This document shows, piece by piece, positions 42,001-45,000 of a stretch of 64,000 bases of DNA. A program made the position numbers. How positions within the stretch are numbered: position 1 is the first letter of the stretch; the number at the start of each line of letters is the position of its first letter. Source of the stretch: Escherichia coli O157:H7 (lineage in GTDB: Bacteria; Pseudomonadota; Gammaproteobacteria; Enterobacterales; Enterobacteriaceae); assembly GCF_013167455.1 (NCBI RefSeq), contig NZ_CP038328.1. One strand, given 5' to 3'.

Positions 42001-45000
42001 AAAGTAAAACCCGAAATCCGCGGCAAGGTAATCCAGTATCAGGAAGAGTGTGACGATGTTCTCTATGAATACTGGACGAAGGGTTTTGTCGTTAATCCCC
42101 GTCGAATGAGTGTGATGGAAGAACTCAATCAGGCTTGCGCTGACATGAAACGGGATAAAAACATTGCCAGTGTGTTTGCTACCGGGCTGAATGAGTGGAA
42201 ACAGGTTAAATCCGCGCATGTATCAAAAATCCGCACATTGATAAACGAAGCGAATCTGCTGATTGATTTTGTCCTGGCTGATACAGGCAAAGGGAAAATA
42301 ACAAAGGCGGATTGATGGAGTGGTGGCTAATGATATCGGATAAACTCATAACGCTGGCGAAGATCCTCTGTGTAATCGTCGGCATTTCATTTTTAGTCAT
42401 GCTGGTTGCCATTTTCTTTTCCACCGCCTGGCGAGTCCTGACGTTATCGGGACTGGTGGGGTGAAAGAGAGATGAACCGTGTTCTGTGTGTGGTGATTAT
42501 TGTCCTGCTGGTAGCCTGTGGTGCGCTTAGTCTGGGGCTGAATCATTACCGCGATAACGCCATAACCTACAAAGAGCAGCGCGATAAAAAAGTCAGTGAG
42601 CTGGAGCTGGCAAATGCAACCATTACTGATATGCAGCAGCGCCAGCGTGATGTTGCTGCACTTGATGCCAGATACTCGAGGGAATTAGCCGATGCGAGAG
42701 CTGAAAATGAAACTCTTCGCGCTGACGTTGCCGCTGGTTACCGCAGCCTGCGGATCAACGCCACCTGTCCAGGTCCCGTGCGTGAAGCCACCGGCACCGC
42801 CCGCGTGGATAATGCAACCGGCCCCCGACTGGCAGACACCGCTGAACGGGATTATTTCACCCTCAGAGAGAGGCTGATCACTATGCAAAAACAACTGGAA
42901 GGAACCCAGAAGTATATTAATGAGCAGTGCAGATAGAGTTGCCCATATCGATGGGCAACTCATGCAATTATTGTGAGCAATACACCCGCGCTTCCAGCGG
43001 AGTATAAATGCCTAAAGTAATAAAACCGAGCAATCCATTTACGAATGTTTGCTGGGTTTCTGTTTTAACAACATTTTCTGTGCCGCCACAAATTTTGGCT
43101 GCATCGACAGTTTTCTTCTGCCCAATTCCAGAAACGAAGAAATGATGGGTGATGGTTTCCTTTGGTGCTACTGCTGTCTGTTTGTTTTGAACAGTAAACG
43201 TCTGTTGAGCACATCCTGTAATAAGCAGGGCCAGCGCAGTAGCGAGTAGCATTTTTTTCATGGTGTTATTCCCGATGCTTTTTGAAGTTCGCAGAATCGT
43301 ATGTGTAGAAAATTAAACAAACCCTAAACAATGAGTTGAAATTTCATATTGTTAATATTTATTAATGTATGTCAGGTGCGATGAATCGTCATTGTATTCC
43401 CGGATTAACTATGTCCACAGCCCTGACGGGGAACTTCTCTGCGGGAGTGTGCGGGGATAATCAAAAACGATGCACACCGGGTTTTCTCATTTTTCACGAG
43501 ATGGGAGCGATTTCCCGCGAAGCCGCCTGTCCGGTGCGGTGGTGGAAGAAACCGGATAAAACAACCGCATTGTGCAAATATCGATCAAATATGGTGCTGC
43601 TGTGTGAAATCTGAAAAATCACAGCGGTCATTATGCATCAGTTTTTAACACAGGACGTCAGAACGTGACATGGCAAAGCTGGACTGGAAAAAGCTGGAGC
43701 AGGCATTCCGACGCGAACATGCCGAAACGGGAATAACATTACTGGACTGGTGCCGGAAGAAAAAGATTAATTACAACACCGCCAGAACCCGTATAAAAAT
43801 GGGCAAAATCGATCATGAAATTGATCATAAAACCGATCATGAAATCGATCATGACATCTCAGATGAAGACCCCTGCAATGACGCGGGTTCCGGCGATGAA
43901 AAATGCGCAAAAAACTCTGAAAAAAACTGCGCAAATTCGGCAGAAACGAAACGGATTCGTGGTTCCCGACTTTTACCACCTTCAAACGCTTTTTCTCAGC
44001 GAAACACCCACGCCGTAAGACACCGTGGATATGCGAAGTATCTTGAGGCAGATAACCTCATGGATGATGCGTCCGACATGGTGCTGTTCGATGAACTGGT
44101 GTTCACCCGGGCCCGCGCACTTTCAGTAACTAAGGCACTTAAAGGGATGTTCGCCGACCTGGAAGAGGCAACTGACGTGGAAACCCGTGTTGCTCTTTAC
44201 GACAAAATACTCAAAGCTGAACAGGCCCTTGACCGGAATATTGCCCGTATCGAGTCAATTGAACGCTCATTGCTGACGCTGGACGTCCTGGCTGAGACAG
44301 CACCAAAACTTCGTGCTGACCGGGAAAGAATCAACGCCGCCAGAGATAAACTCAGAGCGGAAACCGATATTCTGACCAGCCAGCGTCGGGGCGTTGTTAC
44401 GCCTGTCAGTGACATCGTGTCATCGCTGCATGAAATGAGTAATTCGGGGAGACTGGATGACATTCCGGAAGAATGAACCGCGATGTGATGAGCCGTCAGA
44501 AATGACCGAGGCTGAACAACGTCTGTTCATTATGACAAAACTGAGCAATCCCTGGTGGCGGCTCAATCATCTCTACAAAATACAGAACGAAAAAGGTGAA
44601 CTGGTCACCTTCAGAATGCGACCGGCGCAGCGCCAGTTGTTCCGGAGCATGCACAATAAAAATATTATCCTGAAAGCACGCCAGCTGGGTTTTTCCACGG
44701 CCATTGATATTTATCTTCTCGACCAGGCATTATTCATTCCGCATCTCAAATGCGGGATCGTCGCTCAGGATAAACAGGCAGCCAGTGAAATTTTCCGCAC
44801 AAAAATTGCTGTACCGTTTGATCATCTCCCTGACTGGCTGAGAGCCTCATTCACCATCGTTGAACGTCGTAGCGGTGCCAGCGGTGGCTATATCCTGTTT
44901 GGTCACGGCTCGAGTATTCAGGTGGCAACCTCATTTCGCTCAGGTACGGTGCAGCGCCTGCATATCTCAGAGCACGGCAAAATTTGCGCGAAATATCCGG

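What the first reader, a model, noticed from the sequence alone, without database searches (positions are those of the whole stretch)
43805..43855. Short tandem repeat in the terminase small-subunit gene
The sequence aaaatcgatcatgaaattgatcataaaaccgatcatgaaatcgatcatgac encodes IDHEIDHKTDHEIDHD, four copies of a 12-bp unit in frame; probably a variable linker.
Basis: seen in the sequence. Interest (0 to 1): 0.2.

Follow-up and report, generated by a model that had tools for sequence, protein, structure and literature searches.

The report
Likely packaging-site repeats in Stx-phage terminase gene
A short in-frame repeat in the small terminase gene of a Shiga-toxin prophage is real and varies in copy number, but it looks less like a mere protein linker than like a row of Dam-methylatable DNA motifs that the terminase probably recognises to start packaging the phage genome, as in phage P1; this has not been tested experimentally.

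Summary
The repeat is real. Four in-frame 12-bp units (43808-43855) lie in the small-terminase gene terS (43670-44476) of a 933W/TL-2011c-type Shiga-toxin prophage and encode IDHE-IDHK-TDHE-IDHD.

The 'variable linker' idea is partly right. The repeat opens an ~80-residue segment predicted to be disordered, and copy number varies among relatives: 1-7 copies, with 4 the mode and 3 common.

The DNA, not the peptide, appears to be the conserved object:
- Each unit carries (T/C)GATCA, a Dam site and the phage P1 pac hexamer, at exact 12-bp phase.
- A Salmonella relative (61% identity) keeps GATC at the same gene positions with a different peptide.
- Every other lineage of this TerS family has its own palindromic iteron array at this spot (TGCGCA, TGCGAA/TTCGCA, GTACGCA). 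These occur in several frames and both orientations and are conserved at wobble positions.
- Iteron type switches together with the putative recognition helix.
- The N-terminal domain is remotely homologous to P1 PacA, whose gene carries the proven pac hexamers at the equivalent place.

Best reading (about 0.55): the array is the TerS-recognition part of this headful phage's pac site, possibly sensitive to Dam methylation. This is not experimentally shown, and several P1 features are absent.

The parts
43670..44476 (+). terS, small terminase subunit, 268 aa
   Evidence: ORF. phrog_370 E 1e-124. >=99% identical to annotated terS of 933W-like Stx phages. No Pfam or NCBIfam model matches.
43685..43792 (+). 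Codes the N-terminal three-helix, HTH-like domain (residues 6-41). Helix 3 (residues 35-41, YNTARTR) is the putative recognition helix.
   Evidence: AlphaFold2 helices 6-20, 24-31 and 35-41 with pLDDT 78-92. hhalign to P1 PacA residues 3-42: probability 85%, E 5.8e-6. Reciprocal PHROG hits. Foldseek hits are all HTH domains but none is significant.
43799..43807 (+). ATGGGCAAA, a degenerate copy of the first TGCGCA iteron of sister lineages (CTGCGCAAA at the same gene position, nt 130-138)
   Evidence: Comparison with L039 and L131. This is inference.
43808..43855 (+). The reported repeat: 4 units of 12 bp (ATCGATCATGAA, ATTGATCATAAA, ACCGATCATGAA, ATCGATCATGAC). Each has a (T/C)GATCAT core. 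GATC (Dam) sites are at 43811, 43823, 43835 and 43847. Proposed left TerS-binding iteron array of pac.
   Evidence: Cores invariant in all alleles held. 0/108 core differences against 64/912 non-core in the lineage. GATC position and phase conserved in a Salmonella relative at 61% identity.
43856..43903 (+). GC-richer spacer between the two iteron/A-tract blocks. Predicted zone of the first pac cut, by analogy only.
   Evidence: AT content 0.40-0.53 against 0.67-0.70 in the flanks. Four SNPs here in variant L129 and none in the array. P1 cuts between its two hexamer clusters.
43904..43933 (+). Two TGCGCA(AA) iterons (43904-43909 and 43928-43933) with phased A-tracts. Proposed right-hand part of the site, shared with TGCGCA-type sister lineages.
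   Evidence: 2 of the 4 TGCGCAAA words in 64 kb. Homologous pair in L039/PhiR12_3 at gene nt 292/304. A-tracts at 43899, 43909, 43920, 43933 and 43944.
43805..44047 (+). Codes the predicted disordered inter-domain segment (residues 46-126)
   Evidence: pLDDT below 50 and no secondary structure. Poorly alignable across the family.
44057..44386 (+). Codes the long C-terminal helices (residues 130-239), presumably for oligomerisation and TerL contact
   Evidence: AlphaFold2 pLDDT above 90. Most conserved part of the family alignment. The function is inferred.
44457..46163 (+). terL, large terminase subunit
   Evidence: phrog_2 and others. Annotated terL in relatives. No BLASTP similarity to P1 PacB.
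46163..48307 (+). Portal protein (P22-like)
   Evidence: Pfam PF16510, E 8e-127.

Best explanation
The four 12-bp units are a phased array of (T/C)GATCA iterons. They form the left half of the phage's pac (packaging-initiation) site, written into the DNA that codes a disordered, sequence-tolerant linker of the small terminase. Proposed mechanism (inferred): the N-terminal helix-turn-helix domains of the TerS oligomer bind the iterons. The iterons sit one per helical turn on intrinsically curved, A-tract-rich DNA. Together with the downstream TGCGCA pair they wrap the DNA and position TerL for the first cut in the ~50-bp spacer (about 43856-43903). Headful packaging then runs rightward through terL. 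Because each iteron holds a Dam site, recognition or cutting may depend on methylation state, as in phage P1. The Asp-His peptide repeat is mostly a by-product of reading GAT-CAT in frame. Copy number changes by whole-unit slippage and is tolerated. Shown here: the repeat, its location and alleles, the family-wide iteron arrays and their DNA-level conservation, the helix/iteron co-variation, and remote homology of the N-terminal domain to PacA. Inferred: TerS binding, the cut site, and the methylation dependence.
For: (1) 933W is terminally redundant and a generalized transducer, so it is a headful (pac) packager (PMC3752737). I found no mapped pac site. (2) In pac phages the site commonly lies in or at terS: P1 in pacA (PMC10028697; GenBank annotation), SPP1 (PMC6316719), P22 (PMC11260489). 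(3) In 20 lineages of this TerS family, the most repeated short word of the whole gene sits at gene nt ~130-310. It is TGCGCA, TGCGAA/TTCGCA, GTACGCA or GATCAT according to lineage. Enrichment against the whole locus gives binomial P of 1e-5 to 1e-7 per lineage. (4) In the non-GATC lineages the iterons occur in different reading frames and in both orientations, which peptide selection or slippage cannot produce. (5) DNA-level constraint, with cores defined on one reference per lineage: cores differ in 32/449 cells against 564/1882 for neighbouring linker DNA (p 6e-28). At wobble positions it is 14/146 against 238/630 (p 2e-12). In the window lineage it is 0/108 against 64/912 (p 1e-3). (6) A Salmonella TerS at 61% identity has GATC at gene nt 142/154/166, the same positions and phase as here. 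Its peptide is SDQK-SDQK-NDHI instead of IDHE-IDHK-TDHE, so the shared element is (T/C)GATCA. (7) Co-variation: among 105 protein clusters, helix R-T-(R/Q)-I-K goes with Asp-His/Gln repeats every 4 residues (10/10). Helix R-R-(Y/H)-(I/L)-K goes with Ala-Gln repeats (94/95). Fisher p is 4e-13. DNA identity to TGCGCA-type genes is >=90% outside gene nt 61-330 but only 24-73% inside it, so helix and iterons were exchanged as one cassette. (8) P1 PacA: reciprocal PHROG hits (window to phrog_1711 E 1.8e-5; PacA to phrog_370 E 1.9e-4) and hhalign probability 85%, E 5.8e-6. P1's proven pac hexamers TGATCA/G follow its N-terminal domain at ~12-bp spacing and are mostly read as Asp-His/Gln too. (9) Bipartite layout with two blocks of five phased A-tracts (period ~11-12 bp) around a GC-richer spacer.
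Against: There are no experimental data on where packaging starts in these phages. In the window lineage the four units are a perfect same-frame tandem array, which simple slippage in a tolerant linker would also give, and its own constraint statistics are modest (wobble p 0.057). Copy number from 1 to 7 is tolerated. This shows that no exact number is required, though the 1- and 2-copy forms are single partial sequences of unknown viability. Left and right motifs differ (GATCA against TGCGCA), unlike P1's two like clusters. There is no second GATC cluster (no GATC at 43851-44755) and no IHF consensus. P1 PacA has the 'RRY' type helix yet uses TGATCA, so there is no simple helix-to-motif code. 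The helix/iteron co-variation probably reflects a single evolutionary switch, and the cells in the constraint test are not phylogenetically independent. The HTH fold is not statistically confirmed. TerL is not similar to PacB.
Confidence: 0.55

Rival explanations
1. Neutral or nearly neutral slippage-prone linker. The 12-bp unit expanded by replication slippage in DNA coding a disordered spacer between TerS domains. Only linker length and flexibility matter, and the GATC content is incidental.
For: Exact same-frame tandem units. Whole-unit gains and losses at the 3' end of the array. Alleles with 1-7 copies. Predicted disorder over residues 46-126. The linker is poorly conserved across the family.
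Against: GATC position and 12-bp phase persist at 61% protein identity while the peptide changes. Cores are invariant while flanking linker DNA varies. Sister lineages show iterons in several frames and both orientations, conserved at wobble sites, at the same gene position. Iteron type switches together with the DNA-binding helix. GATC is otherwise depleted in the window.
Confidence: 0.25
2. Function at the peptide level. The Asp/His/Glu-rich repeat (DHxx)n binds divalent metal or acts as an acidic spacer that tunes the reach of the DNA-binding domains from the TerS ring.
For: Regular Asp-His every four residues. P1 PacA also has Asp-His/Gln-rich stretches. The region is acidic overall.
Against: His is replaced by Gln, and the flanking residues are replaced wholesale, in the Salmonella lineage, while GATC is kept. 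Most of the family has Ala-Gln-Lys or Thr-Gln repeats instead, with no shared chemistry. Asp-His is simply what GAT-CAT encodes in this frame.
Confidence: 0.08
3. A Dam/SeqA-type element unrelated to TerS binding. Four hemimethylatable GATC sites, one helical turn apart, act as a sequestration or timing site, or as a recombination-prone spot, on replicating phage DNA.
For: This is the densest GATC cluster in the 64-kb window and has exact 12-bp phasing. From my own knowledge, not tested here: clustered same-face hemimethylated GATC sites are good SeqA substrates. A mosaic boundary and an IS3-family insertion lie next to the array in relatives.
Against: It does not explain why non-GATC iterons occupy the same place in sister lineages, nor the link with the TerS helix. 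No other evidence was found for such a role.
Confidence: 0.07

Closest known systems
Phage P1 pac site (HEX4/HEX3 hexamers TGATCA/G inside pacA, cleavage regulated by Dam methylation)
   Same: It lies inside the small-subunit gene just after a homologous N-terminal domain. The hexamer is the same, (T/C)GATCA, with a Dam site, at ~12-bp spacing, and is read mostly as Asp-His/Gln (PMC10028697). Both are headful, generalized-transducing phages (PMC3752737).
   Different: There is only one GATC cluster here (4, varying 1-7) instead of 4 + 3. The right-hand element is TGCGCA x2. No IHF consensus was found. TerS is 268 aa against PacA's 397 aa, with no similarity beyond ~45 residues. TerL is not similar to PacB. 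The phage methylase is of the MT-A70 type, not a demonstrated Dam. Methylation dependence is untested.
SPP1 pac (pacL-pacC-pacR) bound by TerS gp1
   Same: A bipartite TerS-binding site overlaps the region coding the TerS DNA-binding domain, and the cut falls between the two bound regions (PMC6316719). The layout proposed here is the same: left array, spacer, right pair.
   Different: No sequence relationship was shown. The SPP1 site also overlaps promoters and the RBS. The SPP1 motifs are different and are not Dam sites.
P22 pac inside gene 3 (terS)
   Same: It is a cis-acting packaging signal embedded in terS coding DNA, separable from the protein by wobble mutations (PMC11260489). The portal here is P22-like.
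   Different: P22 pac is a single ~17-22-bp asymmetric sequence, not a phased array of short palindromic iterons. The TerS proteins are unrelated by the searches done here.
In-frame tandem repeats (VNTR-like) in disordered protein linkers
   Same: The unit is a multiple of 3. Copy-number polymorphism arises by slippage. The location is predicted to be disordered.
   Different: Across lineages the DNA core, not the peptide, is what is conserved.

Membership tests
Terminase small subunit (TerS; PHROG phrog_370) | Full-length profile match | tested here: met
   phrog_370, E 1e-124, residues 1-268 against profile positions 1-284. There is no Pfam or NCBIfam model for it.
Terminase small subunit (TerS; PHROG phrog_370) | Gene immediately upstream of terL and portal in the late operon | tested here: met
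   terL 44457-46163 overlaps the terS stop, and the portal is at 46163-48307. Lysis genes and bor lie upstream.
Terminase small subunit (TerS; PHROG phrog_370) | N-terminal HTH-type DNA-binding domain plus a helical oligomerisation region | tested here: inconclusive
   AlphaFold2 gives three helices at residues 6-41 (pLDDT 78-92) and long helices at 130-239 (pLDDT above 90). The Foldseek top hits are HTH domains but have E >= 0.6. No PDB sequence relative was found.
P1-type pac site (Dam-site hexamer pac) | Located within the small-subunit (pacA-like) gene, downstream of the N-terminal domain | tested here: met
   The array is at gene nt 139-186, directly after helix 3. P1 HEX4 is at pacA nt 195-234. 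The N-terminal domains align by hhalign with probability 85%, E 5.8e-6.
P1-type pac site (Dam-site hexamer pac) | Repeated hexamer TGATCA/G containing GATC | tested here: met
   CGATCA x3 and TGATCA x1 here. The Salmonella relative has TGATCA x2 and CGATCA x1. P1 hexamers were listed and are described in PMC10028697.
P1-type pac site (Dam-site hexamer pac) | Two hexamer clusters (4 + 3) flanking the cleavage site | tested here: not met
   There is no GATC between 43851 and 44755. The only upstream GATC is at 43583 and does not match the extended unit. The right-hand element is TGCGCA x2 instead.
P1-type pac site (Dam-site hexamer pac) | IHF binding site next to the cleavage site | tested here: not met
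   No WATCAANNNNTTR match with <=1 mismatch at 43700-44000, against 0.3 expected by chance. This was a consensus scan only.
P1-type pac site (Dam-site hexamer pac) | Cleavage requires Dam methylation of the hexamers | not testable with these tools
   This needs dam hosts or in vitro cleavage assays. The phage's own methylase is of the MT-A70 family with unknown specificity.
P1-type pac site (Dam-site hexamer pac) | Pacase made of PacA and PacB homologues | tested here: not met
   Only the first ~45 residues of TerS resemble PacA. TerL against PacB gives a best BLASTP E of 3.7.
pac site of a headful-packaging phage (general) | The phage packages by the headful mechanism (terminal redundancy, generalized transduction) | not tested
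   Taken from the literature for 933W (PMC3752737). The window terS is >=99% identical to that of 933W.
pac site of a headful-packaging phage (general) | The packaging series starts at the site, and the site alone confers packaging on foreign DNA | not testable with these tools
   This needs virion-end mapping or plasmid-transduction assays.
Protein-level variable tandem-repeat linker | In-frame unit, copy-number polymorphism, disordered context | tested here: met
   12-bp units with 1-7 copies. pLDDT is below 50 for residues 46-126.
Protein-level variable tandem-repeat linker | The peptide, rather than the nucleotide motif, is the conserved entity | tested here: not met
   The Salmonella lineage keeps GATC at the same positions and phase with a different peptide. 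Cores are conserved at wobble positions across the family.

The most novel reading that the evidence does not exclude
Packaging initiation in the 933W/Stx phage group is gated by the Dam-methylation state of a phased GATC iteron array inside terS, a P1-like control that evolved in an otherwise unrelated terminase system. On this reading the 'recognition helix plus iteron array' cassette is a swappable specificity module. It defines packaging-compatibility groups among enterobacterial prophages. Array copy number (1-7) tunes how efficiently the Stx prophage, and the host DNA next to it, is packaged and transduced.
Probability: 0.25. Interest if true: 0.6.

Novelty: new member of a known kind. 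Interest (0 to 1): 0.4.

Why it matters
Shiga-toxin phages of the 933W type spread stx genes and can transduce host DNA, yet I found no mapped pac site for them in the searchable literature. A concrete ~130-bp candidate (43799-43933) with a specific testable feature (four Dam sites) would have several uses:
- It would let one build packaging-dead but toxin-competent prophages, or the reverse.
- It would predict the direction and reach of lateral transduction from Stx prophages.
- It would allow a test of whether host or phage methylation controls phage production.

More generally, the family-wide pattern of a DNA-binding helix and its iterons exchanged as one cassette inside one gene is a compact natural example of overlapping protein and cis-site coding. 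It also gives a simple sequence rule for predicting pac sites in this widespread group of enterobacterial prophages. If the rival is true and this is only a tolerated linker repeat, the finding is ordinary.

Tried and rejected
- **Pfam and NCBIfam scans of TerS:** no family matched.
- **PDB sequence search with the family profile:** only a chance hit, E 0.9.
- **Foldseek, full model:** generic coiled coils only, E above 0.1.
- **Foldseek, N-terminal model:** HTH domains dominate the list but none is significant.
- **Literature searches** for a mapped pac site or termini in 933W/Stx phages, or any link to PacA: nothing specific. One paper reports a 'Mu-like' PhageTerm class for a 933W-like phage, meaning host DNA at the termini (PMC7946995). 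This does not locate pac.
- **Second GATC cluster:** I considered the upstream ATCGATCA at ~43581 as a candidate, but it has 2 mismatches to the extended unit and is a single copy, so I rejected it.
- **IHF consensus:** none found.
- **Promoter and terminator scan around the repeat:** nothing relevant.
- **Phage-encoded Dam:** the 'adenine methylase' at 14762-15385 is of the MT-A70 family with unknown specificity, so I make no claim.
- **TerL against P1 PacB:** no similarity.
- **Record start coordinates** of deposited phage genomes: these are arbitrary or in prophage order and say nothing about pac.
- **First constraint test:** it defined core columns by majority presence of the motif, which is partly circular. 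I replaced it with a version that defines cores on a single reference.
- **Simple helix-to-motif 'code':** rejected, because P1 PacA has an RRY-type helix but uses TGATCA hexamers.
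Full report
**Observation.** The quoted string is at 43805-43855 exactly as written. Tandem Repeats Finder reports 43806-43858, period 12, 4.4 copies, score 78. 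It lies in ORF 43670-44476 (+), 268 aa, in frame, giving K-IDHE-IDHK-TDHE-IDHD. The ORF is a small terminase subunit (phrog_370, E 1e-124). It is followed by a large terminase (44457-46163) and a P22-like portal (46163-48307, Pfam PF16510). The gene is >=99% identical to terS of Shiga-toxin phages TL-2011c, P13374, 933W, VT2-Sakai and phi24B. TL-2011c (genus Oslovirus) is the closest relative, and the window holds most of such a prophage.

Each unit carries GATCAT. The GATC sites are at 43811, 43823, 43835 and 43847, exactly 12 bp apart, and there is no other GATC for the next 900 bp. This exceeds chance:
- 4 of the 30 GATCAT words in 64 kb fall within 241 bp (P 5e-6).
- 4 of the 7 exact YGATCATRA words are in the array.
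- Four GATC within 40 bp anywhere in the window has P about 0.04 even ignoring the phasing.
- GATC is otherwise depleted in the window, 192 against 252 +/- 15 expected.

| Collection | Result |
|---|---|
| Complete E. coli genomes | 386 records carry the segment: 369 with 4 copies, 17 with 3 |
| Phage collection | 220 records: about 161 with 4 copies, 29 with 3, about 30 with 3 copies followed directly by an IS3-family insertion that truncates terS |
| IMG/VR | 37 loci with 4 copies, 1 with 5 |
| Large protein collection | A 7-copy allele (P0001, DNA confirmed in L133), a 5-copy cluster with 57 members (P0027), single partial proteins with 2 and 1 copies |

Changes are whole-unit gains or losses at the 3' end of the array, or duplication of a block. 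So 'invariant copy number' is refuted, although one allele dominates.

**Is it a linker?** An AlphaFold2 model built from a 24-sequence family alignment gives three parts. Helices at residues 6-20, 24-30 and 35-41 have pLDDT 75-86. Residues 46-126 have no secondary structure and pLDDT below 50. Helices at 130-239 have pLDDT above 90. A second model of the N-terminal part agrees. The repeat (residues 47-62) begins exactly where the folded N-terminal domain ends.

**What the relatives show.** I collected terS genes from 34% to 100% identity. In every lineage, the most repeated short DNA word of the whole gene sits in the same place, gene nt ~130-310, but the word differs by lineage:

| Lineage | Iteron |
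|---|---|
| E. coli PhiR12_3 type, many Serratia, Dickeya and Aeromonas-like prophages | TGCGCA |
| Providencia PSTCR3 type | TGCGAA with its reverse complement TTCGCA |
| Klebsiella phages | GTACGCA |
| 933W type | GATCAT |

Enrichment against the whole locus gives P of 1e-5 to 1e-7 in each of 12 lineages tested. The cores are palindromic or occur as inverted pairs. In the non-GATC lineages they occur in all three reading frames and in both orientations, so they cannot be a peptide motif or simple slippage products.

I then ran a constraint test in which cores are defined on one reference sequence per lineage and differences are scored in the other members. Cores differ in 7% of cells (32/449) against 30% (564/1882) for the neighbouring linker-coding DNA (p 6e-28). 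At wobble positions alone it is 10% against 38% (p 2e-12). An earlier version of this test was partly circular and I discarded it. The cells are not phylogenetically independent, so the p-values overstate the case, but the direction is consistent in all four lineages.

**The window's own lineage.**
- GATCAT cores show 0/108 differences against 64/912 for surrounding DNA (p 1e-3; wobble only p 0.057).
- Among all alleles held, the only polymorphism inside the array is T/C just 5' of one GATC.
- The key independent datum is a Salmonella relative (P0022, 61% identity). It has GATC at gene nt 142, 154 and 166, the same positions and 12-bp phase as here. Its sequence is AGTGATCAAAAA AGTGATCAAAAA AACGATCACATT, encoding SDQK-SDQK-NDHI rather than IDHE-IDHK-TDHE. 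What is shared is (T/C)GATCA, not the peptide. Related Salmonella clusters have 3 or 5 such units.

**Link to the DNA-binding helix.** Among 105 protein clusters, helix-3 sequence R-T-(R/Q)-I-K always goes with Asp-His/Gln every four residues (10/10). Helix R-R-(Y/H)-(I/L)-K goes with Ala-Gln/His repeats (94/95). Fisher p is 4e-13. This is probably a single evolutionary switch rather than many.

Between the window gene and its TGCGCA-type sisters (L039, L037), DNA identity is >=90% from 60 bp upstream to gene nt 60, and again from nt ~330 into terL. It falls to 24-73% across nt 61-330, which covers helices 2-3 plus the iteron array. Helix and iterons were therefore exchanged as one cassette. 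Relics remain in the window: a degenerate first TGCGCA at 43799-43807, and two intact TGCGCA iterons at 43904 and 43928 that are homologous to the right-hand pair of the sister lineages.

**Comparison with P1.** P1 pac is a 161-bp site inside pacA. It has seven TGATCA/G hexamers bearing Dam sites (HEX4 and HEX3) that flank an IHF site and the cut site. Synonymous disruption of the hexamers lowers P1 packaging about 9-fold (PMC10028697; GenBank annotation).

In the P1 sequence the hexamers lie at pacA nt 195-234 and 325-353, spaced 7-15 bp apart, and are mostly read as Asp-His/Gln. PacA is the seed of phrog_1711 (E 4e-202). The window TerS hits that family over residues 5-94 (E 1.8e-5), and PacA hits phrog_370 over residues 3-104 (E 1.9e-4). 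hhalign aligns PacA 3-42 with family positions 6-45 (probability 85%, E 5.8e-6). So the N-terminal domain is remotely homologous, and in both genes the hexamer array follows it.

The differences are real:
- There is only one GATC cluster here.
- The right-hand element is a different motif.
- No IHF consensus was found.
- There is no similarity beyond ~45 residues.
- TerL is unlike PacB.
- The phage's methylase is of the MT-A70 family with unknown specificity.
- PacA has the RRY-type helix yet uses TGATCA, so there is no simple recognition code.

**Context.** 933W DNA is terminally redundant and 933W is a generalized transducer, so it packages by headfuls from a pac site (PMC3752737). I found no paper that maps that site. 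pac sites inside or overlapping terS, bound by TerS on both sides of the cut, are the norm in SPP1 and P22 (PMC6316719; PMC11260489).

The local DNA fits such a site. Two blocks of five A-tracts, phased at ~11-12 bp (43795-43842 and 43899-43944), flank a GC-richer ~50-bp spacer.

**Conclusion.** The better-supported explanation (about 0.55) is that the repeat is a phased array of P1-type Dam-site iterons forming the TerS-recognition part of this phage's pac site. The array is written into linker-coding DNA, and the Asp-His peptide is largely a by-product.

- **Shown:** the repeat, its alleles, the family-wide iteron arrays and their DNA-level conservation, the cassette exchange with the helix, and the remote homology to PacA.
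- **Inferred:** TerS binding, the cut position (about 43856-43903), rightward packaging, and any role of methylation.

The main rival (about 0.25) is a tolerated slippage repeat with no cis function. Peptide-level metal binding and a SeqA/Dam element independent of TerS are minor rivals.

If the best explanation is right, this is a new member of a known kind, a P1-like hexamer pac embedded in terS. It is of moderate interest because it gives a testable pac candidate for medically important Stx phages.

Noticed in passing
window 14269-14358, in ORF 14126..14542 (-): Ten perfect copies of a 9-bp unit (GCTGCACTG; TRF score 180). They encode (Val-Gln-Pro)x10 in the middle of a 138-aa early-region prophage ORF. 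This tandem repeat is more striking than the one under study and is probably a copy-number-variable tract.
   Followed up: no
L003 (LC727843) 3160-3700, and ~30 other Stx2a_JNE-type phage records: terS is truncated immediately after a 3-copy array (..GATCATGACATCT|GAACCGCCCCGGGTTTCC..) by a multicopy IS3-family element. These prophages should be unable to package their own DNA.
   Followed up: partly
window 14762-15385 (-): A 208-aa adenine methylase of the MT-A70 family (Pfam PF05063, E 1e-22), 100% identical to the 'adenine methylase' of TL-2011c. Its target sequence is unknown. It would matter if it methylates GATC.
   Followed up: partly
window 54173-56119 (+): A 648-aa ORF with long collagen-like Gly-X-Y tracts. 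It accounts for the TRF rows at 54899-55841 and is presumably a tail fibre.
   Followed up: no
whole window: GATC is under-represented: 192 sites against 252 +/- 15 expected from dinucleotide-preserving shuffles. The terS array is the densest cluster in the window.
   Followed up: partly
L008 against L009 (Klebsiella phages ST16-OXA48phi5.2 and ST512-KPC3phi13.5), terS nt 130-250: The GTACGCA iteron arrays of these two closely related Klebsiella phages differ by whole-unit insertions or deletions (7 copies against 5). Copy-number variation of the array is therefore not peculiar to the Stx-phage lineage.
   Followed up: partly
L011/L130 (TL-2011c), and window ~27.7-30.0 kb by position: The closest relative carries a BsuBI-type restriction-modification pair and a helicase/primase replication module instead of lambda O/P. 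Their presence in the window was inferred only from overall similarity and was not checked gene by gene.
   Followed up: no
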